This document shows, one piece after another, positions 5,664 to 49,506 of a stretch of 64,000 nucleotides of DNA. Under the pieces are notes generated by a model. The model saw only the letters and a list, made by a program, of their open reading frames with translations. It had not been told where the DNA came from and made no database searches. This DNA comes from a virus. The stretch's first letter is position 1. Every line of letters starts with the position of its first letter. The position numbers and the translations under genes are program-made. The DNA is taken from IMG/VR virus record IMGVR_UViG_3300033146_000946, positions 1-64,000 of that record; one strand, written 5' to 3'.

Positions 5664-5677
5664 TACTATACTATATT
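5664..5677 (+). promoter_or_regulatory. Putative late promoter motif TACTATACTATATT
   Basis: Directly after a terminator, 47 nt before the ATG; motif recurs before other structural units. Confidence 0.7.
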
Positions 5678-18975: not shown

Positions 18976-20286
18976 ATGACAATGTATATAAAAGACGAAG
19001 TCGCTCTTAGAGACTTTAAAAAGCAAGAAGACCGTGTTCTATTTGATAACGTTTATCATGCGTTTACAAATCGTGGTCTTATGTCAGATTCAGAAGGTAA
19101 TACTGAGTTCTTTGAACTTAAAGATTTAATTACTACACAAGATTTGACAAGATTTATTCCGCAAACAGTTGAAACTGTTGTTCGTGAAGCATTAGAACCT
19201 AATCTTTTTATTGTGGATAAATTATTTCAAGAAATCCAAATTCCTCGTGGATCTAGAATTCAAATCGGTGCACTTGGTGCAATGGAAGCTGGACGTGTTG
19301 GACAAGGTGGAGAATATCCAGAAAGATATGTAGATCTAGATGGTGGTGATATGGTAGCAATTACAACTGATAAACATGGTTTGAAAATTTCTTTAACTGA
19401 AGAAGTTCTCGATGAAAACCTTTTTGATGTTGTAGGTATTTGGCTCCGTGCTGCTGGACGTGCTCTTGCTCGTCATAAAGAAAGATCTGCTGCTAAACTA
19501 ATTAATGAAATGGGTTATGATGTATTTGATAATACTAATCCAACTAATTCATATATTGGTACAACAACTGGTCGTGATATTACTGGTGCAGCTAATGGTT
19601 CAATGACAGTTAATGATGTATTTGAAATGTATTCATATCTTATGCATCGTGGATTTAATCCTGATACTCTTATGATGCATCCTCTCGCATGGAAAACTTT
19701 CATGACTGATACTGAAATGCGTGAAGTTGTTCTTGAAGGTGCTACTGTAACATCTTATAGAAATCCAACTGGTTCATATGCTGAAGGTTGGGGAACTGGT
19801 CATAATGGTCTTGGTCTTAGAACTACTGCTACTGGTAATAGACAAACTTCTGGTAATAGCACTAAAGGACCTGATGCTTGGGTACAAACACTCAATCCAC
19901 TTGGAGCTACATTTAATATAGCACCTAGATATCTTCCAGCTCCACTTGAAGTACTTGTTACTCAATATGTTCCATTTGCTTATGGAACTAGAGGTGGTAG
20001 TGGTGTTCCTAATGAAACTACTAAAGGTTCTACTTCTAGTATTATTATGGTAGATTCAAATGCTTGTGGACTTATTGGACAATCTATGCCAGTTACTATG
20101 GATAGATGGACTGATCCTGAGCGTGATATTGAAAACATTAAACTTAAAGAAATGTGGGGACTTGCTTTACTTGAACAAGGTAAAGGAATCGCTATTGCTA
20201 GAAATATTTCTAGTGATAGAAACTACAACTTTGATAATGTCAATAGTAGAGAACTTACTGAGATCAATAGAGATACTGCGATTTAA
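18976..20286 (+). CDS. Major capsid protein (HK97 fold)
   Basis: FIPQTVE, VGQGGEYPE, KHGLKISLTEE, AGRALARHKE, PDTLMMHP; followed by a strong terminator. Confidence 0.92.
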   Translation: MTMYIKDEVALRDFKKQEDRVLFDNVYHAFTNRGLMSDSEGNTEFFELKDLITTQDLTRFIPQTVETVVREALEPNLFIVDKLFQEIQIPRGSRIQIGALGAMEAGRVGQGGEYPERYVDLDGGDMVAITTDKHGLKISLTEEVLDENLFDVVGIWLRAAGRALARHKERSAAKLINEMGYDVFDNTNPTNSYIGTTTGRDITGAANGSMTVNDVFEMYSYLMHRGFNPDTLMMHPLAWKTFMTDTEMREVVLEGATVTSYRNPTGSYAEGWGTGHNGLGLRTTATGNRQTSGNSTKGPDAWVQTLNPLGATFNIAPRYLPAPLEVLVTQYVPFAYGTRGGSGVPNETTKGSTSSIIMVDSNACGLIGQSMPVTMDRWTDPERDIENIKLKEMWGLALLEQGKGIAIARNISSDRNYNFDNVNSRELTEINRDTAI

Positions 20287-34386: not shown

Positions 34387-34400
34387 TACTATACTACATA
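34387..34400 (+). promoter_or_regulatory. Putative late promoter motif TACTATACTACATA
   Basis: Intergenic, 49 nt before the ATG. Confidence 0.7.
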
Positions 34401-34794: not shown

Positions 34795-34968
34795 ATAAAC
34801 TATCATTTATTAAGAACTAATCTATTATATCTTTATATATATATTATATAATCGCTGGCGCTCAGTTGGTTATATCCAAAAAATAATTAATGACAATACT
34901 ATTGTCAAGAAAAATTTTAAAAAACTTTATAGTATACTATATATAGTAAATTAGTATAAGGAGTTTAC

Positions 34969-35505
34969 ATGAATTTAACAAGACAAACCAAGTTATATAA
35001 ATCTACTTTTGATGATAAAGAAGTAATATATCGAACTTTAAATATAACTGAAATCAATGTTATTAATAATATATCTAATACTTATTATAAATATGATGTA
35101 GCATATGATCTAGCAGTAATTAATAAAGATGATGAAATCAATTATTTAATTAAACAACAAATTGGAAAAGATATTATTGAATCTTCAGCTTTATCTTTAT
35201 CTGACGATATGATATTATCTTTAACTGTTGATGGATTTAGAGAATCAGTTAAAAATGATTTTACTTTAACTCTAATTCCACAAATAATGAATGTATTAAA
35301 TGTTAATTTAGAATATCTACTATCTTTAACAATTGATGATTTAATTGAATTAACTGCTTTATGTGAAATTATGACTAATAAAAAAATATTTAAAGATATA
35401 GATATGCCAAAAGAAGATGTTGCAATTAAAAATGATAATCCACAATTTTTTCCAGAAGATGGAAAATCATTACAAGATAAAATGAAAGAACTAGAAGGTT
35501 TTTAA
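34969..35505 (+). CDS. Second tail assembly chaperone candidate
   Basis: VIYRTLNITE resembles IIYKPLSRND of the preceding gene; coupled to the giant gene. Confidence 0.55.
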   Translation: MNLTRQTKLYKSTFDDKEVIYRTLNITEINVINNISNTYYKYDVAYDLAVINKDDEINYLIKQQIGKDIIESSALSLSDDMILSLTVDGFRESVKNDFTLTLIPQIMNVLNVNLEYLLSLTIDDLIELTALCEIMTNKKIFKDIDMPKEDVAIKNDNPQFFPEDGKSLQDKMKELEGF

Positions 35506-38500
35506 TGTCACACTATGATCCTTATCAGGATAATAACGATAGCTATTATAATCCGCAAAGTAATGTTAATAATAAAGAAAGTGTAGTTCATTCAATAGGC
35601 AGTGCTATTGGAGAAACTGCTAAATCTTTAGTTGGTCAATTAATTGTTCATACTGTTGTTAAATCTGTTGGAAAATTAGCAGGTCGAGGAATCGCAAATG
35701 CTCAACGTTCAAGAGCTACAATGAGATTAAAGCAGAAGAATTTATCATCTTCTCAAAGATCAATGTATCAACGATTATCAAAAGCGGAAACATTTACAGA
35801 TGTATTATCAGCTAGAAGTAAAACATTCGATAGGGTTAGAACTAACGCATGGCGACAAAAGTCAAAAAATATTTTAGAAAAACGTGAAAATGTTTATAAT
35901 AGATTAAAAACTAGAAATCCAATTGGAGCGGAAGCATATAAAGTTAAATCTGCTTTTAAAAATTCTGATACATTTATGGCTGTAGCTATGCATAATGTAG
36001 GTGAATCTATATTAGAAGGATCCATTATAGGATACGCTTACGATGCAGCTACTGGTCAATTAGGACATATGGGTGTAAGAGACGATCTATCTACTTGGAA
36101 TTTACCAGGACATGCTGTAAACTACGCTAAATATATGGTAAAAAATGCTGTTAACTTTGGAGTAATGGGAAATCTTGGTAATATTAAAAGATTTGGCCAA
36201 GCTGGTGCCGCAAATGTTGGTAAAAATTTCTTGAAACATAATAAAGGTTTTGAAGATGCAGTATTAGGATTTGCATCTAAAGTATCTAATGTTAGATATA
36301 AAGGTGCTATGAAACATGGTAGTGATACTGATTATAAAGCACAAGCATTTCAACATGAAATAAATGATAGTTTATTAAAGAAAGTAAAAGATAATGTTGG
36401 CGCAGCACTATCTACTTATACCGATACTATTGCTCCTATGATGCATGAATCATTACATAAACCATTTCAACGCAAACCTACAAAAACACCACAACCAACT
36501 GCTACTCAAAGTGCTGTCAAATTTCAAGATAAAGTTAAACATGGATTGGATCAAGTAAAAAATAGTTTTGAACATAAACGTAATGAGCGAGCAAATAGAT
36601 TATCAAAAGATGTAGATAAAGGTGGATTTGCTATTGCTGATGTTTTATCAGATATGGGTGCAAGATCTAATAATCAATCTGTATTAACTCAACATGGTAA
36701 TTCTAAACAAGCTATAGATGAAATGTTAATGAACCAAAAATCTAGTAGAGGATTTTTAGCTCAAATGTTTGGATTACAACAAACATCTTTAAAAGATACT
36801 TTAACAAAAGATAAAATAGCTGATATAGCTCATGGTATATCTAAATTTACTGATACAAAAGAAGAAATGTTAATTAGACAACTTGGTAATGTTAAAGTTG
36901 GAAATACATTTTTTAAAAAAGGTAAATTTAATGTAGATATGAATTATATGAATCCTCTAAATGTAGTAAAAAGAGGAATGGCTAATATACTTCAATCTAA
37001 TGCTAAAATGTTATATAAATTACCAATGGTTGGAAAATCATTATCATTGGGTGCTATTACTATGTCTGATACTATTCTTGGTACAGAATATAACGCTTTT
37101 TCTTTTAATAATACTGGTACTGGATTTGGATTTGTAGTAGGAACTAAAGGTGGTCCTAAACAAATAGATGATTTATTACGTGAACCTGGTATTTTAAAAC
37201 AAGGATCTAATACTAGTGGCGTTAATGTACATATGGTTAATGATAAATTATATGCTATAGATGGTGCAACTATTACTAAATTAGATTCATATAATGTAGC
37301 AATTAAAGAAACGAGTCCTGCATCTAAATCATTAAGTGAAATGAAAAAGCATGATATGGAAGAATATTTATATCAGAATGCTAAAAACACAGTACCAACA
37401 TCAAAAAGCGAAGCTATAGCAGCTTATGCTAATAATATTAAAAAACAACGAGATGGTTTAGGGTTTTTTGGAAAATTATCAGCTGCTGTATCATGGGATA
37501 AATTAAGTTCTAGTAATGCTATGCAAGGTTTAAAAGAAATCTTTAATATGAAGATTATGCCTAATGGACAAGTACATAGTGTAAAACAACAATTATATGA
37601 CCAAATGGTTGGATCATTTTATGGTAAAGATCCTATATTTAATAAACAAGAAATGATGTCTGTTGGTCGAACAATGTTAGAATCTACTGAACATCATTTA
37701 GCTAATGTTATAAATAGACCACATGTAATAAAACAATTAGCAGAACGTTCAAGTGGATTTATGAATAAAAATAATCTTGGATGGATGTGGGATGATACTG
37801 AATTTGTTCAATTATTACGAGAAGGACGAGCACCTAATGGTGTTATTGATAAAGATTTTTATAAAACATTTTTATCTGATGATGAATCTAAAGCATTATA
37901 TCATACAGTAATACAAAATCCTCGTCGAGCTAAAAAACATATAACACGAGATAGAGTTGGAGCTAGACCAGATTTAGATGCACTTACACAATTACGTACT
38001 AAATTTGCTATGAATGGTTTAGGTAAAGTCGAAGGTGTTGATAGAATGTTAAGTGGTGCAGATTTCTTACATAGACAAGGATTAATAAGTCATTCAGAAG
38101 CAACTGCTATGAAACTTCATGGTAAATTAAATACTATGTTTGCAAAATCTAAAACCTATTTTGGTGAATTAGATCCTGAAATAGTGGATTTAACAGAAAT
38201 GCAAAAATTGTTTAAAGGTAAAAAAGATGGTGTAATAATAAAACAAAATGAATTATTAGATTATGTTATGCAAGATGAAATGCGTAAACCATCTTTAGTT
38301 TATTCAAAAGCAAGATTAGCAGATACGTTATATAGAAATCCAGATGCACCTATGTTTGGATTAGCTCGCGATACAACTCAAGCGATAGGTATATCCTATA
38401 AAAGTGATTCTGATAAGAATATGGCTATGGGTTTAAAAGTATTAAATGTAGGAGCAAATAGAGTATCACATCTAGTATCTGATACATTTAATGCTGTTGG

Positions 38501-41500
38501 TATTGGTGGATTTGAATATGATAATTTCAGATATGGTACTGGTATGTCTGGTTCATTTAAATATCTTGCTAATACAGCTGGTAAAGTAGCAGCAGCAGCT
38601 TTTGCATATAAAGCTATTGATGCTGCAGTTGCATCAGCTCCAGTATTTGATCAAACTGGATTACAAGATGGTATAACAGGATTTTTAGCTGATAATGTAG
38701 CAACTACACATTTAATAGCATCTAAAGCATTAAATTTTACAGGTGTTGCAGGAGCAGGAAGGTATCTTGAAGGGTTAATGCCAGGATTTACATCATCTGC
38801 ACCAGGAGCATTGATTGGTGGTGCTCTTAGAATGGCTGGTGGACCAGGAGCTATGATTGGTGGTGCAATACATGGTGCTATTTGGAATCGAATGTTATCA
38901 GCATATATGCCAGATTTTACTAAAACATATGAACAATTACAAAAAGAATATTCAGGTGAAGAAGAAGTAGCTATTGTAGAAGGTAAAGGATGGTTATTAG
39001 GTACTACACCATTCCAAGGTAATAAAATAGTTGGTTATAAACCAAATTGGTATGTTGAAGCAAAATCAAGATGGAAAGCATCAGATACATTATATGGTTC
39101 TGAATTTAGAAAATTAATACATGAACCATTACCTGGAATAGGTGCTAATATTGGTGATATAATAGATCCATATTATATGGAACGAAAACATTTCTTCGAT
39201 AGGCCATATCCTGTTACTGGAGGATTTTTAGATGAAGTTCCAGTATTTGGTCCATTAATAGATGCTACGTTAGGAAAAATATTTAAACCTAAAAAATTAA
39301 TGCATCAGAAATTTTTAAATGGTGATTCATCAATTGAACATTCTGAAGTTACAGCTATGCCAGTTATACCAATGTCAGAACAATCAGTACATATGCGTAG
39401 TGCTTCACCAATGAAAACAACTAGTCGACATATTAGATCTAATTTTATGGGAGCATGGGTTTATCCAGGTGATCATGCTTCATCAGCACAAATGATAGCT
39501 GATGATTATATGGCAGGATTTGAAAATATGATGGGTTTAGTTGGTTTTGCTGGTGGTGTTGGTAGAACTAATTTAGTAGAACATGAACGTGTAGTTCCAA
39601 CATTAGAAACTGCTGGTAGAATGGCATCTATGACTAGAAGTTATAATGATATGGCATTGGGAGGAATAGGTACTTTATCTGAAGCAATGAGACGTTTTGT
39701 AGGTAAACCAGACCATAGAAAAGTCGGTGTTAATCCAATTCCAAATATGCTTCCAAACTTTCTACCAGGTAGATTTTTAACTGGTGATCCATATGAAAAA
39801 ATAATGAAAGGTGAATTAAGATTACCTGGTACTGCTTATGAAAGAACACATGATATTAATTATGCTATGCCAGGTCGTGCTTCAATGTTCGGTGGTAATT
39901 TAAAAGATATCGTTGCATATTTTACTGGACATAAATCACCATTATTAAAAGAAGAACATGATATATTGGAATATGGTACACATGCTCACGAAGCTATTCA
40001 AAATTGGCTTAAAGCTGAAAATATATTAATATCTGCTGAAAATTTAGTATATGATACAAGAAATAATGTGTCTGGTCATATTGATGGTGTAATTCGAGAT
40101 GGTACAGGTGGTGGTGGTAGAAGAGCTCTTGAAATAAAAACTATATCAGCTAAAGGTTTAAAGAAATTATCAGGACCAAAAAATCAACACGTTGGACAGT
40201 TAAATTTTTATCTTCATGAAATGAAGATGAAAAAAGGTACAATATTATATGTTAATAGAGATAATCCAGCTGAGTTTAAAGTATATGAAATTAATTATAA
40301 TCGAGATAGATATACAAAAGATTTACAAAAAATACATCAAGCTAGAAAAATAGCGTCTGGTATGATAGCACAATCTAAAACGGGTATATCTAAAGGTTTT
40401 AGTTATTCTTGGACAGATAGATTAAATATATTAGCTGACGTTGCGCCAGCATCAAAAGAATTCAAAGAAGCAAAGTGGATAGTTGAACAACAGATAAAAA
40501 ATGGAATGATGGATGAACGTGGAATGAACAAATATAGAAAAGCGTTAAAACATCGACAAGCTACTTTGAGAACTTATGAATTATATCCTACTAGATTTAG
40601 AGGACAAATATTATCACCTGATGCTGAATATAATAGACAAAATGAAAATTATAATATAAAAGCAGGAGCAGAATATAGTTTACCAGAAAGAATAGTTGGA
40701 GCAGTTTGGGAAGAATTTTTAAATACAAATACATTTTTAACTAATAAGTTTTTTGCATTTAAAGATCCATTAGAACATTATTCAGAATATCAAGTATACG
40801 GAAAAGAATATACACCATGGACTGATCCTTATGGTTCATTTGTAAAACCAAGAATAGATAGAGTATTAGGATCAACTGATCCTTTTAAAGGAGCAATAGC
40901 AGGTTCTATTGATGGAGCATATTTATTTGGTGGTAGTCCAATGGCAGCAGTTGGAGCATTTGTAGGTGCTGCTGTTGGTGGTGTTAATGGAATCATGAAA
41001 AGACAACAAAGATGGCTACCTGGAAATATTAAAACTGAAAGACAAATTAATGATTATTTTGATACGTTAGAATATTATAAAAATGAAAGAATGGCAACTT
41101 TGAGTTATGGTATGGAATATGATAGATATAAAAATGCAGCTAATGCTACATTCCATAGTTTAATACAAAATGAAAGTACGGATTATACTAATATATATAG
41201 ATCAGCTTATACGTCAGAAAAACCATATCTATCTGCCTGGTTAAATGAAACTAATCCTGAACGACAAGAAGAAATTTTAAAAATTGTTCCTGAACGATTA
41301 GGAAATGTGTTAGTTAGTCATTGGCAAAAAGAAGGATCAAAAGTTAATACTGAAGATCATATTGATAAAATGTCAGCAGGTTTATTACAAAAACATAATC
41401 CAGAATATGATATGAGAATGTTAGATCCAATGTTACGAACAGAAGATATTAAATTAAAAGCTATTAATAATGCTGGATTAAATGCTCATGATTTTGGATT

Positions 41501-41786
41501 AGGTTGGGCTCCACAATTATTAAGAGCACAAGATGCGATGGATAGAATGCCAGATCCAAATATTAATCAAATTAATTTTAATGAAAATAATGCAGATATG
41601 ATGGATCCAGGTACAGTAAAAGGAGCAATAATGAATATGTTACATTCGATGGGATTAAAAGGTAGAGTTACAGTATTTATAAATAATCATGTAGATGGTG
41701 GATCAAATAAAGCAACTATAACATTACAGCATAATAGAGTGCAAGAAATTCGTGATGCTGTTGATTTTAGAGAGAGGTATATGTAA
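35505..41786 (+). CDS. Tape-measure-position giant protein with glycine zippers and a PD-(D/E)XK nuclease domain
   Basis: Position after chaperones; GxxxG-rich segments; GTHAH..GHIDG..LEIKT..QLNFY. Confidence 0.75.
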   Translation: MSHYDPYQDNNDSYYNPQSNVNNKESVVHSIGSAIGETAKSLVGQLIVHTVVKSVGKLAGRGIANAQRSRATMRLKQKNLSSSQRSMYQRLSKAETFTDVLSARSKTFDRVRTNAWRQKSKNILEKRENVYNRLKTRNPIGAEAYKVKSAFKNSDTFMAVAMHNVGESILEGSIIGYAYDAATGQLGHMGVRDDLSTWNLPGHAVNYAKYMVKNAVNFGVMGNLGNIKRFGQAGAANVGKNFLKHNKGFEDAVLGFASKVSNVRYKGAMKHGSDTDYKAQAFQHEINDSLLKKVKDNVGAALSTYTDTIAPMMHESLHKPFQRKPTKTPQPTATQSAVKFQDKVKHGLDQVKNSFEHKRNERANRLSKDVDKGGFAIADVLSDMGARSNNQSVLTQHGNSKQAIDEMLMNQKSSRGFLAQMFGLQQTSLKDTLTKDKIADIAHGISKFTDTKEEMLIRQLGNVKVGNTFFKKGKFNVDMNYMNPLNVVKRGMANILQSNAKMLYKLPMVGKSLSLGAITMSDTILGTEYNAFSFNNTGTGFGFVVGTKGGPKQIDDLLREPGILKQGSNTSGVNVHMVNDKLYAIDGATITKLDSYNVAIKETSPASKSLSEMKKHDMEEYLYQNAKNTVPTSKSEAIAAYANNIKKQRDGLGFFGKLSAAVSWDKLSSSNAMQGLKEIFNMKIMPNGQVHSVKQQLYDQMVGSFYGKDPIFNKQEMMSVGRTMLESTEHHLANVINRPHVIKQLAERSSGFMNKNNLGWMWDDTEFVQLLREGRAPNGVIDKDFYKTFLSDDESKALYHTVIQNPRRAKKHITRDRVGARPDLDALTQLRTKFAMNGLGKVEGVDRMLSGADFLHRQGLISHSEATAMKLHGKLNTMFAKSKTYFGELDPEIVDLTEMQKLFKGKKDGVIIKQNELLDYVMQDEMRKPSLVYSKARLADTLYRNPDAPMFGLARDTTQAIGISYKSDSDKNMAMGLKVLNVGANRVSHLVSDTFNAVGIGGFEYDNFRYGTGMSGSFKYLANTAGKVAAAAFAYKAIDAAVASAPVFDQTGLQDGITGFLADNVATTHLIASKALNFTGVAGAGRYLEGLMPGFTSSAPGALIGGALRMAGGPGAMIGGAIHGAIWNRMLSAYMPDFTKTYEQLQKEYSGEEEVAIVEGKGWLLGTTPFQGNKIVGYKPNWYVEAKSRWKASDTLYGSEFRKLIHEPLPGIGANIGDIIDPYYMERKHFFDRPYPVTGGFLDEVPVFGPLIDATLGKIFKPKKLMHQKFLNGDSSIEHSEVTAMPVIPMSEQSVHMRSASPMKTTSRHIRSNFMGAWVYPGDHASSAQMIADDYMAGFENMMGLVGFAGGVGRTNLVEHERVVPTLETAGRMASMTRSYNDMALGGIGTLSEAMRRFVGKPDHRKVGVNPIPNMLPNFLPGRFLTGDPYEKIMKGELRLPGTAYERTHDINYAMPGRASMFGGNLKDIVAYFTGHKSPLLKEEHDILEYGTHAHEAIQNWLKAENILISAENLVYDTRNNVSGHIDGVIRDGTGGGGRRALEIKTISAKGLKKLSGPKNQHVGQLNFYLHEMKMKKGTILYVNRDNPAEFKVYEINYNRDRYTKDLQKIHQARKIASGMIAQSKTGISKGFSYSWTDRLNILADVAPASKEFKEAKWIVEQQIKNGMMDERGMNKYRKALKHRQATLRTYELYPTRFRGQILSPDAEYNRQNENYNIKAGAEYSLPERIVGAVWEEFLNTNTFLTNKFFAFKDPLEHYSEYQVYGKEYTPWTDPYGSFVKPRIDRVLGSTDPFKGAIAGSIDGAYLFGGSPMAAVGAFVGAAVGGVNGIMKRQQRWLPGNIKTERQINDYFDTLEYYKNERMATLSYGMEYDRYKNAANATFHSLIQNESTDYTNIYRSAYTSEKPYLSAWLNETNPERQEEILKIVPERLGNVLVSHWQKEGSKVNTEDHIDKMSAGLLQKHNPEYDMRMLDPMLRTEDIKLKAINNAGLNAHDFGLGWAPQLLRAQDAMDRMPDPNINQINFNENNADMMDPGTVKGAIMNMLHSMGLKGRVTVFINNHVDGGSNKATITLQHNRVQEIRDAVDFRERYM

Positions 41787-44700
41787 TGCCAATAACTGAA
41801 ATTTTAGGTGAAGAAATTGAAAATGATAATGATAGAGTAAACTGGTTTGGTAGAGTAATGGTTGGTGGTATGTCTGTTTTAGGACTTGTTGCTATTGCTA
41901 ATAAGATTGGTGGTCCTACAGGTAAAGCTATAAAATTATCAGTTGGTGATCAATTAGAAGAAGAAGTAATAGATGCTGTTAATAAATATGGAAGACAAGC
42001 TGATAAATTAAAATCACCAAGTAGTTTAAAACATAAATTACCAATTAATGGAAAATTAGAAGTAGTTGGAAAATTACCATCAGAACAAGCAATTTCTAAA
42101 TTTGAACGTGTAGTAAATTCTCAAGATAAAATAAACAAAATGATGGAGACACCAACATCATTATATAATAAAATACATGAACTTGAGCGTTCTATTTCTA
42201 CTGTTATTAATGGTGTTGAAAATGGTGATCCTATGATGAAACAGATTAACGCATTACATGGAATAGTTTCAGCTAAAGTTAGGACAAAAGATGCTAAATC
42301 TGATGCTAATAATTATTTATTAATGGCAACCAAAATAAATGCAATGAGAGATTATAGTACTACTGATGTTAAAGGTGAATTAGCACAATATTTAGATGAA
42401 GATATCTGGTATGATAATTTCTTAACTGAAATGAAACCATCTGATATGATTAAATGGAATCAAAATAATGAAACTTTAATAAAAAGTGATACATCATATG
42501 CTAAAAAATATTATAAACAATTACAAAATTTAGAAAAAGAAATTTTAGCTAATAAAATTGCTAGTTCTGCTAATAGTAATAAAGCATTAGAGCTAACACA
42601 TAATAAATTATATGTAAAAGATGCTTTTATGCCTGTTGGTGATTTATTAAATGATGCAGCAGGTTATGTAATAAATGTTACTAATAAATCTATCGAATTA
42701 TTTTCATCTGATTTTAGTAATAATAAAATGAGTGTTGGAGAAATAAAACAAGTAATCGATAAATCTATATCTAAAAACGTTGGATTAAAATCACAATACG
42801 GATCAGAATTAAGTGATATAGCTCATTTATTAGATCAATTTAAAACTATGAGTAATGGTAAAATTACTAATGTTAAAATGACTTATAAAACCACAGAACA
42901 AAGAGGTGTTGAAAAAGCATATGTTGTAATTAATATAGATAGAAAATATGGAAATAATAATACTAGATCATTTTCTATGAATATACCATTAGTTGATAAA
43001 TTTAATATTGTACCAGATATAACTAATACATCACATTTTGGATATGGTGTTGCAGGTATAATAGAATCATTACCAGGAACAAATAAACCAGCTACAGCAA
43101 TAGATATATCTACTTATTATATGAGAACTGTTAAAGATATGTTAACTCAATCTATAATGAGTGAGGTATTATTTACTGATGAAGAATCATTTAATGATGT
43201 ACAAAAAAAATTAAGAAGACCATTATTAGCAATTCAAGATCAATTAAGTGCATTAAATGGTGAAGCTAGAGATATTTTTGCTACAGGAATGTATATACCA
43301 AAAACGCATTTAGATTTAATTGCTGATAAAACAGGTAGTAAAAAAAGACAATTAGCTGATGGTGCTAAAACAATAATAAATATGTTTAATGATAGTAAAA
43401 GAAATACTAATAATGATGTATCTATTGTTTTAGACTTAGAAACAATTCAATTATTAGGAAATGGTTCAGGAAGATATATGTCTGTAAGAAATACTACTTC
43501 AATTTGGTCTGTAGGTTTTTCTATTTTTAAAGGTAATGAATTAATAGATGGTGATCAGATTTCTTCTATGCATGCTTTAAAAGAGCATGATTTATTACGA
43601 GCATATGAAGTTGATAAAGTTGATAAAGGATATATAGCTAGGATGATTGATGAAAATCCTAATATCCGTAAATTTGCTAGATTTGCACAGAAAACAGTTG
43701 GCGGTTCAACTGGTGATGATTCAGTAAGTTTAGCTATAGCATTAAAAAAACATATAGAAATGGTACTAGATGAATCAAACGGATCATTATCTAAAGTAAC
43801 AACAATGCCAGGTATGGGAAATTTTTCAAGTTCAGTTGAATTTGCTCAATCTTTTGTTAAAATGTTGAAAGCTAAAATACGAGATTTACAAGATACTTTA
43901 CAACCAGGAGCAAAGATCACACTTGAAACTGCAAATGGTACTGATTTCGATATAAGATTATTAGAAACATTAACTGGTGATATGGGTTCTATAAGAGATA
44001 TGGTTGAATTTAAAGATATAACTAATGTAAGTAGAACTATGAAATTTGGTAAAAAAGGTATGTTAGGTGATCAGTTAATGCATATCGTTAACCAGTTAGC
44101 ATGGGATCAAGGATATGATAAAGAACATTTTAATGTAGAAGCTAATCCATTAGAAGCATTAAAACAATTACAAAAGAATGGATTAATGAAAACTAATAAA
44201 AATGGTGGTGATATATTAAAATTTGTTGGCGGTAAAATAAAAGGTAATATGGGTTTACATAATTCAGCATTATTAGATACTGTAATGACAAAAGCTGCAG
44301 TTATATTAGCTGAGAATGTAATTGCTAAAGATACTAGTCATGTAGATAAAGCATATGAAATTTTAAATTTATTAGAAAAATATCAAAGAAAAGATTATGA
44401 AGCAACTATTGCTGATTATATGGAATCATCTTTAGGAGTAATAAATGGTAAACAAGTAACTAAATCTGGTATTAGTATGCAACATCGTGTTGATAATTAT
44501 TATACACATTTTAACGTAGCTGATGTTATGCCATTATTAGCAAATAATCCAGTATCTAAACAAGCAAATCAATATTTAAGACATGGTTGGTTTCAAAAAA
44601 ATGTTAAAGCTGCATATTGGCGATATGGAAAAATGATTACATCTCCAATAGAAGAAGTAGCTACAGATTTAGCATATAGAACTACAGGATTTGATAAAAA

Positions 44701-47700
44701 TAGATTTGCTAATAAAGTTATATTAAATACAGCATATACAATTGGTGGATATGGTATGCAATCTGGATATAGTGCTATACCTAAATTTATAGATGATGAA
44801 TTTGATCAAATGTTATATAATCAAAAACGAGTTCAATTTAATTTTGCTGATACTGATTTTCCAGATGCATCTATGTCTAATACTATTAGAGAAGTATATG
44901 ATAAAGCTATGGTTAGAGCTCGTAAAATGATGAGTGATAAAGGATTAGGTCCAGTTAAAAGTAAGCATAAAATATCCAAAAGTGTATTAGAAGAAGCATT
45001 TAGAATAGAATTAGGAAATATACAAAATAAAGAATCTTTGATATTAGATCCAGAAAACCCAATACATCAAAATATTATGTTTGGTGATGGTAAATTAAAT
45101 ATTAAACAAAATACTCCAGGAAAATTAGTAGGTATTGAATTAGGTGGTGATATTAATAATGATAAACCAGCTTCAATGTTATTATTATTTGATTATAAAT
45201 CTTCTTTAAATTTACAGATAGATCATTTACCAGATAATAAATCAGTTGTTACTAAATTACAACATGTAGATCAAGAAGTACTTAGAACTATGGGTAGAAA
45301 ATATACACATGGATTAATTGAATCACAAGTAGATATGCGTACAATAGAAAAAGGATATACTGGAGAATTACAAAGAAAAGCATTATTAAAAATAATAGGA
45401 CATGTTAATAAAATAGGTCATATTGGGTCATCAGATGCATCTAAGAGAGTATGGACTGATTCAGAAAAATTTGCATCTGATAAAATAATGAAAAAAGTAA
45501 TATCATTGTTTAAAGAAAAAGCTGCAACAGATGGTATGCATGTTGGATCTATTGATGAAGAAAATGGTTTTAAATCATTTATATTTGGTGCATTAAAACC
45601 AGGAACAGTAGATGTTAAAGAACAAATGAATATGTTATCTACTATTAAAATGTCGGATATTATGGATATATTTGGTGAAGCAGGTGGTGATCTCATACAT
45701 GATTATAAAAGTTTAAAAGAATATTATGGTTTATTTAGTAATGATGGTATAATTGAAACTGCTCATAATATCGATTCAAAATTAGTAGCTAAAGGCTTTT
45801 CAGAAAAAGGTACAAAAGAAGGAGATTTATTAGAACAAATGTTAAATATGGATGATACTATAAAAGAAAATAAAGCATTAATAAATCCATTTCAAGCAGC
45901 TGCTAATAAATATAATAGAAAGCATGGTGATAGTGCATTACAAAAAAAATTACAAGGATACATTGATGCTAATGATTTACAATCTGCTGATAATTTAATT
46001 AAGAAATTAAAAATTGGAAAATTATTTCAAGCAGTAGGTGATATGAGTGCAGTTAATAGAAATATTATGGCTGGTAAAACTGGAGATGAAAGGTTTGATA
46101 AATTAATGGGTATTGTTGTTCCTACTATTCATCACTTTAGTGATTCTCAATCTATGAAACAAAAACAAGTTAATAAAACTATTAAATTTCGAGCTAATTA
46201 TTTTGATACAATTTTTCATGAAAATTATTTACCAGAAAGAGTAAAACAAGTATTAGCATCAAGTCAAGGTTGGAAAGCTGACAAAGCAGGTTTAGATTTA
46301 GTTAAAACATCTCGTGCAGTTATAGACATGTTTAAAAATAATAATCTTAGTAAATTAATGACTAATTATAGTTTAAATCAACAACAAATGTTAGATATCA
46401 TTGGTAATCCACTAACTAATAAACAAATAGATAGAGCATTAGAAAGATTAAGTTTAGCTGATGGTAAAAGTTCAAAGAGAAAAGCTGCTATAATTAGTGA
46501 AGTAATAGATAGTATTAAAAAAACAGGAACAACTATATCATTAGAAGAAGAAGAAGAAATAAGATCTAGAAGTATTAATTATTTTAAAGATAAATTGATT
46601 GCAACTAAAAACAGACCTTCTTCTTTATCAGCTACCGAAGCATTACATGTAATATCTTTAAGTGAAGATCAAAATGCTAAAGTAGTTGGTTTAAAATTTT
46701 ATGAATATAAAGAACTTGATAAAGATACAGGAAAATTAGTATCTAAAGTTATATCAAAAGAAACTAGAGCTAAATTAATTAAAAAAGGTATTAGTAAAGA
46801 TCAATTCAAATCATGGGGTGGACAAATTAGATTTGATTTAGAAGATATGATATCTAGATTGAATGAAAAAGAATCTGATCCATTTAATCTACGTCAATTT
46901 ATTGATCATTTTTCACATCTTAAAAATACACCTGGTCGTGCTGATAATAGAATCTTTAATGTCAAAGAAGTTAATGGTAGAAAAATAATTGAAATGAACG
47001 CATTAGTTATGCCAATGTTTAGTGATATTAGAAATGTATTCAATCAAATTGGTGATGTTGAAGGTTATGGTGTTGCTACAAAAGAATTTAAATTAATGCA
47101 AGAAGTCGCTAATGGTTTAAAAGATTATGCTAATTCCTTTATTGATGGTAAAGGTAATAATTCTATGAATAATAGAACTGGTGACGACTTAGCTTTTAAC
47201 TATTTCCAAATGTTAGGTGGAATTATGAATTTTGGAAAAGATTCACAATTATTTGATGCTGTTAAAAAATTCCATTTAGTAGGTAGTAGACATACATATG
47301 GTGTAAGTGATCAACATGTATTATTAGCACAATATACCTTAAAAGGAATAGATGGTAAAAGTACTGGTTCAAAACAAAGAATGTTAGATTTTTTCAAAAA
47401 AAATAATATGGATGCTTCACAACAAAGTGCATTTATGGATCAGATAAGAAGTGTAGCTTTATCTGATGGACATACAGCATTAGTAAATGCTGAAGATTTT
47501 TTTGGTGATAATATAAAAGTAAATACAGGTAATGGTAAAAGTATGACTTTTGGTCAAATGTTATCTGATGCAAAAGCTAATGATAAACATTTATATAATG
47601 AATTATTAAAAATTCAAAATGGTAGAGCAACTATGCCAGGTTTCACTGGTAGATATCCTATCCCATCAGCTGGAGAACTTGGATTATCTATGGTTAATAT

Positions 47701-49291
47701 TTTAGGTCTTAGTAGAGAAGTGATGGATTTTTTAGGTATGAGTACTGATATGACATATTTTAATTCTGTTATAGCTGAAGCTCGTAAAGCTGATACTGAT
47801 GGTGATGAAACTGAGTTAATGCAATTAGGATATAGAACAATCGAACATTTAAATGAAATGAGAGCAGCAACAAAAGAATCACATGCTAGAACTGTAGGTA
47901 GTCATGGACTTCAATATCTTATTAATGAATATAATAGAAGTGGTGCATTAATAGGTAAGGAAATGAAAGGTGGTGTAGAATATTATAAAGTTGGTAAATT
48001 AGCACCTAATGGTTCAATGATTGAAGAATTAGTTACAAAAGATGAATATTTTAATAAATTTGATTCAGGTATATCTAAAAATTTTAAAAAAATTCTTAGT
48101 CAAGACTGGATAGAAGGAACTAATATACATAATATAGCAAATGGTGTAGAACGTCATTTAGCAACAGGTGAAATTGGTACAGCTGCTCAATCATTAATTG
48201 GTTTAATTTCTAATACGATGAGTGAAAGAGTAAAAGATTTACATCGTTTAAATAAAATACTTCCTGATAATGTTCCAACTGATATAAACTTTTTGGATTC
48301 AATTCAATCAATAAAATTTGGTATGGCTAATATGCATCAAACTGCAATTGCTATGGGTAAACATAATACGTTTGAAAAAGCAATAAATTTAGCACATGCT
48401 ATTGGTTTCTGGGAATCAAAAGTTAATAATAAACAAGCTTCACGAGAACAAGTTCAAGCAGCTGAAAAAGCATGGATGCATAATTTTTATGATGATTGGG
48501 ATACAAAAAAATTAAATCCATATTGGGAAAAAAATGACGAAACAAGAGCATTTGTTCAAAAACAACAAGACTTATTTAATACTTTTAAAACTGCTATGCC
48601 ATTTATAGATCAAGTTTATAAAAAAGATCCACAAATAGGAAGATACTTAAAAAATGAAAGCGATTTATCTAGTGGTAAAATGGGAACAGATATTACTGCT
48701 GCATTATGGAATGAATCTATGGATCATGGTATTTATGATGATGCTATATCTCATATTAATTCATCAACTCGAGAAGCAACAGCAGAATTAATTCAACATG
48801 TAATAGATAAACAAAGTGGTGATTTTAAATATGATAATGGACCTACAAAACGAAGTAAAGCTTTTAATCATTTTTATACTAATAATAATATACATGTTAA
48901 AAATGCAATGATGCATGGTGGTAAATTTGCAGCTTTTGGTATGTTAGCAGTTGCAGCATTAAATATGTTTAAACCTATGGCTGGTACTGGAATTGATGCA
49001 CCAGGTGTACATAATAATTTTACTGCTAGTGAATTACAATTAGATAGAAGAATAGCTATAGATCAAGTTGATGCATCTTTTAGTAAAGAAGCATTTGCTT
49101 ATATGAATGATCAAGATTCAACTGCTAGAGAAAAAAAATCATTATATGGTGCTACACAATTAGCAATATATGATAATTTAATTAGACCAGAACCTACTCA
49201 TAAACAATTTAGAAGTAATCTTAATATACAACAGATAAATAGAATGACTTATATTGGTCCATTTGGTAATTCTAATTTTGATAGTAGGTAA
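41786..49291 (+). CDS. Giant protein: DEDDh exonuclease-like domain plus putative single-chain two-barrel RNA polymerase (virion RNAP candidate)
   Basis: LDLET / NGTDFD / HNSALLD; NKSVVTKL, GRYP, ADTDGD, GEIG, QTAIAMGKH in the expected order. Confidence 0.65.
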   Translation: MPITEILGEEIENDNDRVNWFGRVMVGGMSVLGLVAIANKIGGPTGKAIKLSVGDQLEEEVIDAVNKYGRQADKLKSPSSLKHKLPINGKLEVVGKLPSEQAISKFERVVNSQDKINKMMETPTSLYNKIHELERSISTVINGVENGDPMMKQINALHGIVSAKVRTKDAKSDANNYLLMATKINAMRDYSTTDVKGELAQYLDEDIWYDNFLTEMKPSDMIKWNQNNETLIKSDTSYAKKYYKQLQNLEKEILANKIASSANSNKALELTHNKLYVKDAFMPVGDLLNDAAGYVINVTNKSIELFSSDFSNNKMSVGEIKQVIDKSISKNVGLKSQYGSELSDIAHLLDQFKTMSNGKITNVKMTYKTTEQRGVEKAYVVINIDRKYGNNNTRSFSMNIPLVDKFNIVPDITNTSHFGYGVAGIIESLPGTNKPATAIDISTYYMRTVKDMLTQSIMSEVLFTDEESFNDVQKKLRRPLLAIQDQLSALNGEARDIFATGMYIPKTHLDLIADKTGSKKRQLADGAKTIINMFNDSKRNTNNDVSIVLDLETIQLLGNGSGRYMSVRNTTSIWSVGFSIFKGNELIDGDQISSMHALKEHDLLRAYEVDKVDKGYIARMIDENPNIRKFARFAQKTVGGSTGDDSVSLAIALKKHIEMVLDESNGSLSKVTTMPGMGNFSSSVEFAQSFVKMLKAKIRDLQDTLQPGAKITLETANGTDFDIRLLETLTGDMGSIRDMVEFKDITNVSRTMKFGKKGMLGDQLMHIVNQLAWDQGYDKEHFNVEANPLEALKQLQKNGLMKTNKNGGDILKFVGGKIKGNMGLHNSALLDTVMTKAAVILAENVIAKDTSHVDKAYEILNLLEKYQRKDYEATIADYMESSLGVINGKQVTKSGISMQHRVDNYYTHFNVADVMPLLANNPVSKQANQYLRHGWFQKNVKAAYWRYGKMITSPIEEVATDLAYRTTGFDKNRFANKVILNTAYTIGGYGMQSGYSAIPKFIDDEFDQMLYNQKRVQFNFADTDFPDASMSNTIREVYDKAMVRARKMMSDKGLGPVKSKHKISKSVLEEAFRIELGNIQNKESLILDPENPIHQNIMFGDGKLNIKQNTPGKLVGIELGGDINNDKPASMLLLFDYKSSLNLQIDHLPDNKSVVTKLQHVDQEVLRTMGRKYTHGLIESQVDMRTIEKGYTGELQRKALLKIIGHVNKIGHIGSSDASKRVWTDSEKFASDKIMKKVISLFKEKAATDGMHVGSIDEENGFKSFIFGALKPGTVDVKEQMNMLSTIKMSDIMDIFGEAGGDLIHDYKSLKEYYGLFSNDGIIETAHNIDSKLVAKGFSEKGTKEGDLLEQMLNMDDTIKENKALINPFQAAANKYNRKHGDSALQKKLQGYIDANDLQSADNLIKKLKIGKLFQAVGDMSAVNRNIMAGKTGDERFDKLMGIVVPTIHHFSDSQSMKQKQVNKTIKFRANYFDTIFHENYLPERVKQVLASSQGWKADKAGLDLVKTSRAVIDMFKNNNLSKLMTNYSLNQQQMLDIIGNPLTNKQIDRALERLSLADGKSSKRKAAIISEVIDSIKKTGTTISLEEEEEIRSRSINYFKDKLIATKNRPSSLSATEALHVISLSEDQNAKVVGLKFYEYKELDKDTGKLVSKVISKETRAKLIKKGISKDQFKSWGGQIRFDLEDMISRLNEKESDPFNLRQFIDHFSHLKNTPGRADNRIFNVKEVNGRKIIEMNALVMPMFSDIRNVFNQIGDVEGYGVATKEFKLMQEVANGLKDYANSFIDGKGNNSMNNRTGDDLAFNYFQMLGGIMNFGKDSQLFDAVKKFHLVGSRHTYGVSDQHVLLAQYTLKGIDGKSTGSKQRMLDFFKKNNMDASQQSAFMDQIRSVALSDGHTALVNAEDFFGDNIKVNTGNGKSMTFGQMLSDAKANDKHLYNELLKIQNGRATMPGFTGRYPIPSAGELGLSMVNILGLSREVMDFLGMSTDMTYFNSVIAEARKADTDGDETELMQLGYRTIEHLNEMRAATKESHARTVGSHGLQYLINEYNRSGALIGKEMKGGVEYYKVGKLAPNGSMIEELVTKDEYFNKFDSGISKNFKKILSQDWIEGTNIHNIANGVERHLATGEIGTAAQSLIGLISNTMSERVKDLHRLNKILPDNVPTDINFLDSIQSIKFGMANMHQTAIAMGKHNTFEKAINLAHAIGFWESKVNNKQASREQVQAAEKAWMHNFYDDWDTKKLNPYWEKNDETRAFVQKQQDLFNTFKTAMPFIDQVYKKDPQIGRYLKNESDLSSGKMGTDITAALWNESMDHGIYDDAISHINSSTREATAELIQHVIDKQSGDFKYDNGPTKRSKAFNHFYTNNNIHVKNAMMHGGKFAAFGMLAVAALNMFKPMAGTGIDAPGVHNNFTASELQLDRRIAIDQVDASFSKEAFAYMNDQDSTAREKKSLYGATQLAIYDNLIRPEPTHKQFRSNLNIQQINRMTYIGPFGNSNFDSR

Positions 49292-49302
49292 TATATTAAA
49301 GA

Positions 49303-49316
49303 TACTATACTATATT
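49303..49316 (+). promoter_or_regulatory. Putative late promoter motif TACTATACTATATT
   Basis: Intergenic, heading the baseplate unit. Confidence 0.7.
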
Positions 49317-49332
49317 CAAAAAGGACTATAAT

Positions 49333-49506
49333 ATGAGTATAATAGAAACTAATATCGTAGTAGATATAAATGACCCAAATGTAACACCACAAATAATAGC
49401 TCAATTAGAATCAATATTATCAAGTATAAATGGTAAACCCGTGGAAGTTAATGTAATAAATATGGATGATCCCATATCTATGAGTCCATTAAATTATAAA
49501 GTATAA
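49333..49506 (+). CDS. 57-aa protein (not in ORF track)
   Basis: AAGGA RBS; MSIIETNIVVDINDPNVTPQIIAQLESILSSINGKPVEVNVINMDDP... Confidence 0.65.
   Translation: MSIIETNIVVDINDPNVTPQIIAQLESILSSINGKPVEVNVINMDDPISMSPLNYKV

What the first reader, a model, noticed from the sequence alone, without database searches (positions are those of the whole stretch)
45200..48370. Cryptic single-chain two-barrel RNA polymerase inside the tail operon (virion RNAP candidate)
Seen: the 2501-aa protein has, in order, DNKSVVTKL (K1152), GRYP (R1956), YFNSVIAEARKADTDGD (D2003/D2005/D2007; nt 47792-47806), GEIGT and HQTAIAMGKH. Established: two-barrel RNAPs use a beta-like barrel with conserved lysines (E. coli beta GNKGVISKI) and a beta'-like barrel with RxP followed by ADFDGD. 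Single-chain members (QDE-1-type RdRP, SPbeta YonO, crAss-like phi14:2 gp66) have the barrels in this order with downstream G.I..N and A[VI]D..K motifs. Inference: a highly diverged RNAP, expressed late, packaged and injected to transcribe early genes. Packaging from the tape-measure locus of a myovirus would be unusual. The first catalytic Lys position appears to be Gln and F is replaced by T, so it may be atypical or inactive.
Basis: partly seen in the sequence, partly recalled or inferred. Interest (0 to 1): 0.92.

Follow-up and report, generated by a model that had tools for sequence, protein, structure and literature searches.

The report
Hidden RNA polymerase in phage tail giant
A 2,501-residue protein in the tail gene block of an uncultured jumbo contractile-tailed phage contains a very diverged single-chain RNA polymerase of the cellular beta/beta' type, probably delivered with the DNA to start phage transcription; this enzyme family appears undescribed.

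Summary
DxDxD alone is chance level here: 15 ORFs of 300 aa or more carry one. But across 13 full-length homologues (16-30% identity), R1956, P1958, D2003, D2005, D2007, Q2185, K2192 and H2193 are invariant.

So this is a beta-to-beta' fusion with flap-like and clamp-like parts. It looks nearer to multisubunit RNAPs than to gp66, QDE-1 or YonO, which gave no sequence match.

Virion delivery is inferred, not shown. Support: fixed tail-module synteny in 5 of 5 homologue contigs, a late promoter-like motif, translational coupling, hydrophobic termini, and no cysteines in 2,501 residues.

Neither GEIGT nor the second Lys of DNKSVVTKL is conserved. No paper searched describes this family. The other first-stage notes cover this same stretch, not other DNA.

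The parts
41786..49291 (+). Gene for the 2,501-aa giant protein (P0001); its ATG overlaps the stop of the upstream 2,093-aa gene (TAATG)
41843..41911 (+). N-terminal hydrophobic, TM-like helix (aa 20-42); G33 and K40 invariant
43403..44305 (+). DEDDh-exonuclease-like motif set (aa about 540-840): D550/E552, N717/D722, H825/D831, all invariant. Identified by motifs only; no profile or fold support was obtained
   Evidence: negative
44540..46162 (+). RNAP beta-like module (aa 919-1459), structurally equivalent to E. coli beta 675-1243: double-psi barrel B with a flap-like insert. Holds G[KR][ST]V (K1152) and K1189-x3-G1193
46334..47275 (+). beta' clamp-like region (aa 1517-1830), equivalent to E. 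coli beta' about 23-337; ends at near-invariant K1818
47621..47821 (+). Double-psi barrel A segment (aa 1946-2012) with invariant G1946, G1952, R1956-x-P1958 and the Asp triad
47792..47806 (+). Catalytic-type D2003-x-D2005-x-D2007. Structural alignments end here opposite E. coli beta' D460 and Mtb beta' residue 535
48125..48259 (+). 45-residue helix (aa 2114-2158) with invariant I2138 and near-invariant T2142/N2143. Candidate bridge helix: one alignment runs on to beta' 810
   Evidence: row 13
48338..48364 (+). Q2185-x-[ST]-[AI]-x-x-G-K2192-H2193, invariant Q, K and H. Candidate trigger-loop base, by resemblance to the beta' AAQSIGEPGTQ motif (inference)
48917..49288 (+). C-terminal hydrophobic segment (aa 2378-2395) followed by the most conserved block of the family (aa 2351-2501)
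34969..41786 (+). Upstream translationally coupled genes: a 178-aa protein in the chaperone position and a 2,093-aa giant with a Cas4-like PD-(D/E)xK nuclease (aa 1483-1616)
34930..34939 (+). Late-promoter-like motif (TAGTATACTA, one mismatch to TACTATACTA) 30 nt upstream of the 178-aa gene; a perfect copy at 34387 precedes the 100-aa gene
49303..49312 (+). The same motif (TACTATACTA) 12 nt after the stop of the giant gene, ahead of a conserved 57-aa ORF and the 2,559-aa baseplate hub gene. It sits at the same position in homologue contig L002

Best explanation
Residues about 919-2200 of the 2,501-aa protein form a diverged but probably active single-polypeptide two-barrel RNA polymerase. Its layout matches a natural beta-to-beta' fusion. 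First comes the C-terminal half of beta: the second double-psi barrel with a flap-like insert, equivalent to E. coli beta 675-1243. Then comes the N-terminal half of beta': a clamp, then the first barrel with R-x-P and the Mg-binding D-x-D-x-D, followed by a bridge-helix-like long helix and a Q..GKH element.

This module sits inside a tail-module giant. That giant also carries a DEDDh-exonuclease-like motif set, hydrophobic helices near both ends and no cysteines.

Proposed mechanism (inferred). The protein is made late from the structural operon and built into the virion with the neighbouring giants at the tape-measure position of a 0305phi8-36-related jumbo myovirus. It is ejected through the contracted tail, and its hydrophobic termini anchor it at the host membrane. 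The polymerase module then transcribes the first phage DNA to enter, independently of host RNAP. This parallels P23-45 gp96 and crAss-like gp66.

Shown here: the motifs, their invariance, the fold similarity, the domain order and the conserved synteny. Inferred: catalytic activity, packaging, ejection and early-gene transcription.
For: Conservation: the RxP and DxDxD invariants and their clustering.

The beta-then-beta' order and the spacing match natural fusions.

Context: a sheath, tube and baseplate module. Identical synteny in 5 of 5 homologue contigs. The positional counterparts in 0305phi8-36, gp145 and gp146, are mass-spectrometry-confirmed virion proteins. A late promoter-like motif is shared with the capsid gene and conserved in position in L002. 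There are no Cys in 2,501 aa against 0.84% genome-wide, P about 7e-10. Published precedents: PMC10770324 and bioRxiv 10.1101/2020.03.07.982082.

Against: No sequence or profile method links the family to any RNAP: Pfam, PHROGs, PDB phmmer and hmmsearch, and hhalign against beta and beta' all failed.

The residue after the first Asp is T, N or S rather than the usual aromatic. The family-conserved Lys at column 1196 is Gln in this protein. The acidic residue at column 993 is Ser here. The beta-side catalytic residues could not be assigned residue by residue.

There is no proteomic, transcriptomic or biochemical evidence. The cultured relative's gp146 has no DxDxD and no detectable similarity, so its virion status transfers only by position. 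A folded polymerase of about 1,300 aa cannot sit in or pass through a tail tube without unfolding.
Confidence: 0.6

Rival explanations
1. It is a real and active two-barrel RNAP, but it is not delivered with the virion. On this reading it is a late-made non-virion polymerase, or a tail-assembly-associated enzyme that stays in the producing cell. Early genes would then be read by host RNAP.
For: Packaging is inferred only from gene position. No second RNAP was found in the 147 kb held, so this could be the phage's only polymerase.
Against: The gene lies between the chaperone-position genes and the baseplate hub, and is translationally coupled to the preceding giant, in every homologue contig checked. 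The terminal hydrophobic helices and the complete lack of cysteines fit a translocated protein. Both published giant phage RNAPs in structural gene blocks are virion proteins.
Confidence: 0.15
2. It is a two-barrel polymerase with a different activity: RNA-dependent or end-primed synthesis like QDE-1 or YonO, priming, or even DNA synthesis. The fused DEDDh-like exonuclease would then act as a proofreader or end processor.
For: A 3'-5' exonuclease motif set lies directly N-terminal to the polymerase module and is invariant; fused exonucleases are typical of replicative polymerases (general knowledge). The T/N/S in place of the aromatic residue in DxDxD is atypical for DNA-dependent RNAPs.
Against: All top structural matches are DNA-dependent RNAP subunits, including a beta'-type clamp and a flap-like insert. 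No PolD, QDE-1 or YonO-type chain appears in the top 50 of any search. The genome has its own DNA polymerase and primase-helicase. The exonuclease assignment itself has no profile or fold support.
Confidence: 0.12
3. It is an exapted, catalytically dead RNAP fold that now serves a structural role, as a tape measure, ejectosome or DNA-binding plug.
For: This protein carries substitutions at family-conserved positions: Gln at the Lys column 1196 and Ser at the acidic column 993. No zinc sites are possible because there are no Cys. Its position is that of a tape measure gene.
Against: Purifying selection has kept exactly the metal-binding triad, RxP and Q..KH invariant across lineages that share only 16-30% identity, and conservation peaks at these sites. 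That is not expected of a dead enzyme.
Confidence: 0.1
4. It is not an RNAP at all: the motifs are chance matches and the models reproduce RNAP-like shapes by accident.
For: DxDxD is common in this proteome. No sequence-level homology to any RNAP was found. The models are low in confidence.
Against: Two independently folded, non-overlapping parts each retrieve a different RNAP core subunit as their top hits out of 48,161 chains. They do so in the correct beta-then-beta' order, with the invariant Asp triad landing on the catalytic Asp of beta'.
Confidence: 0.03

Closest known systems
Thermus phage P23-45 gp96, a tape-measure-fused virion RNAP (PMC10770324)
   Same: A single-chain two-barrel RNAP hidden in a giant tail-module protein with membrane segments. 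It was recognisable at first only by a conserved DxDxD. It is proposed to transcribe entering DNA at the membrane.
   Different: In gp96 the RNAP is the N-terminal 1,200 aa of a 5,002-aa tape measure protein of a siphovirus; it is clamp-less and flat, with DFDGD. Here the RNAP occupies about aa 919-2200 of a 2,501-aa protein of a contractile-tailed phage, has a clamp-like region matching beta' 23-337, has D[TNS]DxD, and is preceded by an exonuclease-like region. No sequence match to the solved gp96 chains was found.
crAss-like phage phi14:2 gp66 virion RNAP, with QDE-1 (bioRxiv 10.1101/2020.03.07.982082)
   Same: A giant (2,180-aa) virion protein encoded among structural genes. Both barrels are in one chain, in beta-like then beta'-like order, surrounded by large regions of unknown fold.
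   Different: gp66 and QDE-1 join the barrels by a connector of about 140 aa; here the linker is about 480 aa and clamp-like. gp66 belongs to a podovirus. There was no PHROG, PDB-sequence or fold-search match to gp66 or QDE-1, whereas multisubunit beta and beta' chains matched.
Multisubunit RNAPs of jumbo phages (phiKZ and AR9, virion and non-virion) and of NCLDV (PMC7598289, PMC7824862)
   Different: Those enzymes are split into 4-5 polypeptides and are encoded outside the tail module. This one is a single chain, lacks the N-terminal half of beta (no counterpart to beta 1-675 was identified), and has no cysteines and therefore no zinc sites.
Natural beta-beta' fusions of some bacteria (mentioned in Supplementary Fig. 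legend of PMC10770324; examples such as Helicobacter are from my own knowledge)
   Same: The same order and junction logic: the C-terminus of beta runs directly into the N-terminal clamp of beta'.
   Different: The bacterial fusions are full-length, highly conserved RpoB-RpoC proteins detectable by Pfam. This protein gives no Pfam hit and keeps only the catalytic halves.
YonO-type single-subunit RNAPs, including the one reported in Bacillus phage 0305phi8-36 (ABS83659.1, PMC7824862)
   Same: A two-barrel RNAP in one chain, encoded by a phage of the same broad lineage; the sheath and baseplate hub are homologous.
   Different: YonO-type enzymes are about 800 aa, free-standing, non-structural genes, and are reported to lack the flap insert. 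tblastn of this protein against all INPHARED phages, 0305phi8-36 included, found nothing.

Membership tests
Two-barrel (double-psi beta-barrel) RNA polymerase superfamily | Barrel A carrying a conserved DxDxD metal-binding triad | tested here: met
   D2003, D2005 and D2007 are invariant in 13 homologues, with RxP 47 aa upstream. Structural alignments end with D2003 opposite E. coli beta' D460 and Mtb beta' residue 535. The loop itself is modelled at pLDDT below 50.
Two-barrel (double-psi beta-barrel) RNA polymerase superfamily | A second barrel (B) of beta/Rpb2 type upstream in the same enzyme | tested here: met
Two-barrel (double-psi beta-barrel) RNA polymerase superfamily | Two basic residues from barrel B at the active site (E. 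coli beta K1065 and K1073) | tested here: inconclusive
   K1152 is K or R in 13 of 13 and sits where beta K1073 is expected by order and spacing. K1189-x3-G1193 resembles beta R1106-x3-G1110. The position 8 aa upstream (Q1144) is not conserved. No residue-level structural alignment was available.
Two-barrel (double-psi beta-barrel) RNA polymerase superfamily | Bridge helix and trigger loop after barrel A | tested here: inconclusive
   There is a 45-residue helix at aa 2114-2158 with invariant I2138 and near-invariant T2142/N2143. One alignment extends to beta' 810 (row 13). The Q2185..K2192-H2193 element resembles the beta' QSIGEP motif by eye only.
Two-barrel (double-psi beta-barrel) RNA polymerase superfamily | Templated NTP polymerisation | not testable with these tools
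   Needs biochemistry.
Multisubunit-type beta/beta' clade (cellular, NCLDV, phiKZ/AR9) | A flap (sandwich-barrel hybrid) insert in barrel B and a beta'-type N-terminal clamp | tested here: met
Multisubunit-type beta/beta' clade (cellular, NCLDV, phiKZ/AR9) | Sequence-level membership (Pfam RNA_pol_Rpb1 and Rpb2 domains), zinc-binding clamp, separate subunits, full-length beta | tested here: not met
   No Pfam hit at E up to 0.1. PF04997 and PF00562 find nothing in the genome. hhalign against beta and beta' is not significant. There are no cysteines. It is a single chain, and no counterpart of beta 1-675 was identified.
crAss-like gp66 / QDE-1 / YonO-type single-chain RNAPs | Detectable sequence or profile similarity to the family | tested here: not met
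   No PHROG hit. No phmmer or profile hit to any PDB chain, which would include gp66, QDE-1 and the P23-45 RNAPs if deposited. No tblastn hit in 50,697 phage records.
crAss-like gp66 / QDE-1 / YonO-type single-chain RNAPs | Short (about 140-aa) connector between the barrels and no flap insert | tested here: inconclusive
   The linker from about aa 1460 to 1946 is roughly 480 aa and clamp-like. These families were absent from the top-50 fold lists, but absence from a list does not exclude them.
Virion-packaged phage RNA polymerases (functional class) | Presence in the virion and rifampicin-resistant early transcription | not testable with these tools
   Only context is available: the tail module, the late promoter-like motif, the Cys-free sequence, and the mass-spectrometry-confirmed positional counterparts in 0305phi8-36.
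DEDDh (DnaQ-like) 3'-5' exonucleases (N-terminal region aa 540-840) | ExoI DxE, ExoII Nx(2-4)[FY]D and ExoIII Hx(4-5)D motifs, and the RNase H-like fold | tested here: inconclusive
   The motif residues D550/E552, N717/D722 and H825/D831 are invariant. However, there was no Pfam hit, no PDB profile hit, no atlas support and no hhalign match to E. coli DnaQ. The fold was not predicted.

The most novel reading that the evidence does not exclude
This is a previously undescribed family of single-polypeptide, zinc-free, beta-beta'-type RNA polymerases. Structurally it is nearer to multisubunit cellular, jumbo-phage and giant-virus enzymes than to any known single-chain phage RNAP. It is fused to a 3'-5' exonuclease and to membrane-anchoring ends inside a tape-measure-position protein. 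It is delivered through a contractile tail, so that a jumbo myovirus starts its own transcription at the point of DNA entry.
Probability: 0.4. Interest if true: 0.85.

Novelty: new variant of a known kind. Interest (0 to 1): 0.72.

Why it matters
Virion-delivered two-barrel RNAPs are known from three settings: crAss-like podoviruses, one Thermus siphovirus, and phiKZ/AR9-type jumbo phages. Each discovery changed views on how phages escape host transcription and on how the RNAP fold evolved.

This would be a fourth, sequence-unrelated case and the first in the tail module of a contractile-tailed phage. Its architecture is a fused catalytic beta half and beta' half with flap-like and clamp-like parts but no zinc sites. 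That sits between the multisubunit enzymes and the minimal single-chain ones, so it bears on whether fused or split forms came first.

It also offers a compact, Cys-free RNAP for structural work. It shows that genes annotated as tape measure or giant hypothetical protein in metagenomic jumbo phages can hide core enzymes that Pfam, PHROGs and BLAST all miss.

Tried and rejected
- Pfam, PHROGs and PDB phmmer on the whole protein gave no relevant hit.
- A profile of aa 1900-2260 against PDB sequences gave nothing at E up to 10.
- tblastn against 50,697 phage records found no match.
- Word-indexed protein searches found only the protein itself and P0002. One search was wasted because the 'longer' length band stops at 2,000 aa.
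- hhalign of the family against beta and beta' alignments from 32 and 36 proteobacterial genomes was not significant. Only aa 1985-2012 against beta' 442-469 came out in the right register, with score 21.5.
- Foldseek against PDB with the 1,200-aa model gave no E at or below 1e-3, although the list was dominated by beta' chains.
- The ESM Atlas shape search with the 1,200-aa model was uninformative, with TM below 0.25.
- The exonuclease region gave no support from Pfam on four homologues, a PDB profile search, atlas features, or hhalign against E. coli DnaQ.
- I noticed that IMAGKTG (aa 1427-1433) resembles beta MAGRHG. I rejected it because it lies in an insertion unique to this protein.
- A weak PF00623 hit at genome 86591-86842 (16.4 bits, below the cut-off) was rejected; it falls in a 222-aa protein with no RNAP features.
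- 0305phi8-36 gp146, the positional counterpart, has no DxDxD and no hhalign similarity.
- No second RNAP was found in the 147 kb held, but the record is only about 64% complete.
- Literature searches found no description of this family. The supplement of PMC10770324 lists no DTDGD-type RNAP.
Full report
**What the window is.** The window is the first 64 kb of a 147,061-bp linear IMG/VR virus record that CheckV estimates as 64% complete. GC content is about 27%. Nearly all genes lie on the + strand and form a myovirus structural module:
- large terminase, 9657-11474
- portal, 14449-16326
- major capsid protein, 18976-20286
- a 958-aa tail sheath, 24583-27459
- two tube-like paralogues
- four very large genes of 1,691, 2,093, 2,501 and 2,559 aa
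- baseplate wedge genes

The sheath and the 2,559-aa protein have distant homologues in Bacillus phage 0305phi8-36 (gp139 sheath, gp147 baseplate hub), Moorella phage MTATph1 and Acinetobacter phage ME3. The phage therefore belongs to that broad jumbo-myovirus lineage.

In 0305phi8-36 the order is tube, tube paralogue, gp142, two chaperone candidates, gp145 (1,930 aa), gp146 (2,537 aa, 'hypothetical tape measure') and gp147 hub. gp145 and gp146 are annotated as found in virions by mass spectrometry. The protein studied here occupies the gp146 position.

**The observation.** ORF 41786-49291 translates to 2,501 aa.

DxDxD alone means little here, because 15 ORFs of 300 aa or more in this genome carry one. 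Pfam, PHROGs, PDB sequences and 50,697 phage genomes gave no relevant match.

**Homologues and conservation.** An exhaustive HMMER scan of 1.84 billion cluster representatives with aa 1101-2300 found 14 proteins. Twelve of them are full-length, at 2,349-2,491 aa. They share 16-30% identity with the query.

Only 33 columns are invariant. They include G1946, G1952, R1956, P1958, D2003, D2005, D2007, I2138, Q2185, K2192 and H2193. Seven invariant columns within 62 residues is far above a random scatter: Poisson P is about 2e-5, or about 1e-3 after correction.

The pattern around the triad is strand, R-x-P, strand, strand, short helix, A/W-D-x-D-x-D, strand. This mirrors E. coli beta' NRAPTLH...NADFDGD with a 12-residue insertion.

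GEIGT is not conserved; the conserved element next to it is I-G-L-x-T-N-T-x-R-x-R. K1152 is K or R in every sequence, but K1157 and Q1144 are not conserved. The middle residue of the triad region is T, N or S throughout the family and never aromatic.

**Fold evidence, beta' side.** AlphaFold2 was run without templates on the 13-sequence alignment of aa 1101-2300. The model was mediocre, with pLDDT 61 and pTM 0.35. Foldseek gave no significant PDB hit, but its list was almost entirely RNAP beta' chains.

VIA-align does not depend on Foldseek. Run against 48,161 PDB representatives, it ranked these as its top five:
- Pol II Rpb1
- plastid RpoC1
- Pol I A190
- the archaeal RNAP clamp domain
- the AR9 nvRNAP beta' N-terminal subunit

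The alignments place model 417-721 on beta' 23-337, the clamp. The longer alignments end at model 901-907 opposite E. coli beta' 459-464, and at model 903 opposite Mtb beta' 535. Model residue 903 is D2003, and E. coli D460 is the first Asp of NADFDGD. One alignment continues to model 1050 opposite beta' 810. That makes the 45-residue helix at aa 2114-2158 a candidate bridge helix.

**Fold evidence, beta side.** I therefore folded aa 880-1560 separately, giving pLDDT 60 and pTM 0.55.

The top nine of 48,161 representatives are all RNAP second-largest subunits:

|---|---|
| ASFV | 8.8 |
| phiKZ nvRNAP chain C | 8.7 |
| vaccinia Rpo132 | 8.4 |
| Xanthomonas beta | 8.3 |
| Pol IV | 8.1 |
| AR9 nvRNAP C | 8.1 |
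| plastid beta | 7.4 |
| Pol I | 7.0 |
| Pol III | 7.0 |

By order and spacing, four family motifs sit where beta has its conserved elements:

| This family | E. coli beta | Spacing check |
|---|---|---|
| N-P-L-N-K-Q-x-x-Q (P922, Q929) | NMQRQ | |
| G-x-x-G-x-x-E-G (G990, G994) | GYNFED | |
| G-[KR]-[ST]-V (K1152) | GNK1073GV | |
| K1189-x3-G1193 | R1106-x3-G1110 | K1152 to K1189 is 37 aa; beta K1073 to R1106 is 33 aa |

These equivalences are inferred. The tools gave alignment ranges, not residue pairs.

**What it is.** Two non-overlapping pieces were folded separately. Each retrieves a different RNAP core subunit, in the order beta then beta', with the invariant Asp triad on the catalytic loop. 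I conclude that aa about 919-2200 is a single-chain two-barrel RNAP.

Its closest structural relatives are multisubunit enzymes. It has a long clamp-like linker of about 480 aa between the barrels, whereas gp66 and QDE-1 have a connector of about 140 aa. It also has a beta-rich insert in barrel B. According to Iyer et al. (PMC7824862), the flap insert separates the cellular and jumbo-phage type from the YonO and RdRP type.

It nevertheless differs from every multisubunit enzyme:
- it is one chain
- it has no counterpart of beta 1-675
- it gives no Pfam-level similarity
- it has no cysteines, so it cannot have the zinc sites of beta'

I therefore file it as a new, sequence-orphan family within the two-barrel superfamily, not as a member of any named family.

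**How it probably works.** Virion delivery is not shown. The indirect evidence is:
- Synteny is identical in all five homologue contigs examined. The order is a lytic-domain giant, a gene of about 100 aa, one of about 180 aa, one of about 2,050-2,090 aa, the RNAP giant, a gene of about 60 aa, a hub of about 2,550 aa, then sheath-initiator-like and Baseplate_J genes.
- The 178-aa, 2,093-aa and 2,501-aa genes overlap by one base, which indicates translational coupling.
- The motif TACTATACTATA(T) lies 30-45 nt upstream of late gene starts, at 5664, 20347 (capsid), 34387, 34930 and 49303. It brackets this gene group. In contig L002 it is found at the same two positions although the proteins share only about 30% identity.
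- Hydrophobic helices lie near both ends, at aa 20-42 and 2378-2395, and the C-terminal 150 aa are the most conserved part.
- The four giants contain 3 Cys in 8,844 aa, and this one has none, against 0.84% in the rest of the proteome (P about 7e-10). Cysteine avoidance would suit a protein that must unfold and travel outside the cytoplasm; that is my inference.

Two published precedents exist: P23-45 gp96, which is fused to a tape measure protein, and crAss-like gp66. On this basis the most likely role is a virion enzyme that is ejected, anchored at the membrane, and transcribes the first DNA to enter. I put this full scenario at about 0.6, the RNAP homology itself at about 0.9, and catalytic competence at about 0.75.

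This protein has Gln where 12 of 13 relatives have Lys (column 1196) and Ser where most have Glu (column 993), so it could be less active than its relatives. No other RNAP was found in the 147 kb, but a third of the genome is missing.

**Novelty.** I searched the paper library for virion and two-barrel RNAPs in jumbo or contractile phages. I also checked the RNAP survey table of PMC10770324. Neither turned up this family or a DTDGD-type enzyme. A paper on another metagenomic jumbo lineage reported finding neither a tape measure protein nor an RNAP (PMC12619734), which shows how such genes escape routine annotation.

The kind, a virion RNAP hidden in a giant structural protein, is known. The family, its beta-beta' fusion architecture, the myovirus tail setting and the exonuclease-like fusion appear new.

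Noticed in passing
window 43403-44305 (aa 540-840 of the same protein): A complete DEDDh-type exonuclease motif set (D550/E552, N717/D722, H825/D831) is invariant in all 13 homologues and lies directly upstream of the polymerase module. Pfam, a PDB profile search, atlas features and hhalign against E. coli DnaQ gave no support, and the fold was not predicted.
   Followed up: partly
window 35505-41786 (nuclease hit about 39951-40352): The translationally coupled upstream giant (2,093 aa) carries a Cas4-like PD-(D/E)xK nuclease domain (phrog_1706, E 1.5e-17, aa 1483-1616) and a glycine-rich hydrophobic segment at aa 1813-1831. It is conserved next to the RNAP giant in all five homologue contigs.
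   Followed up: partly
window 5664, 20347, 34387, 34930, 49303 (+ strand); L002 2666 and 17301: The motif TACTATACTATA(T) lies 30-45 nt upstream of the start codons of structural genes. It keeps its positions in a contig whose proteins are only about 30% identical, so it is likely a late promoter. Which polymerase reads it is unknown. The 10-mer count in the window is not above shuffles (19 against 15.3 expected); position and conservation are what single it out.
   Followed up: partly
window 29307-57197: The four consecutive giants (1,691, 2,093, 2,501 and 2,559 aa) contain 3 cysteines in 8,844 residues, against 0.84% Cys in the other ORFs. Most homologues of the RNAP giant have 0-3 Cys.
   Followed up: yes
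window 49333-49506: A 57-aa ORF lies between the RNAP giant and the hub giant. An ORF of 57-64 aa is called at the same place in the homologue contigs. Its function is unknown.
   Followed up: partly
window 29307-34382 (about 33960-34220): The 1,691-aa protein after the tube paralogues ends in an NlpC/P60 peptidoglycan hydrolase domain (PF00877, E 5.5e-8). The counterpart in contig L095 has Peptidase_M23 instead, so the lytic domain has been swapped at a fixed position.
   Followed up: no
window 49518-57197: The 2,559-aa protein is a distant homologue of the 0305phi8-36 gp147 baseplate hub/endolysin and of Acinetobacter phage ME3 hub proteins. It has a hydrophobic segment at aa 1105-1130.
   Followed up: partly
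BFVD entry A0A172Q0S6 (Acinetobacter phage vB_AbaM_ME3, 798 aa): An uncharacterised 798-aa protein of a related jumbo phage appears among the RNAP beta-type fold matches (Foldseek E 6.5e-3). It may be an unannotated YonO-like RNAP.
   Followed up: no
window 41843-41911 and L086 10787-10966: The N-terminal hydrophobic segment of the RNAP giant (VMVGGMSVLGLVAIANKIGG) resembles by eye the N-terminus of 0305phi8-36 gp145 (VIMGGIATVGLVAGGYLAFKKG). This hints at a shared N-terminal anchor module among these tail giants.
   Followed up: no
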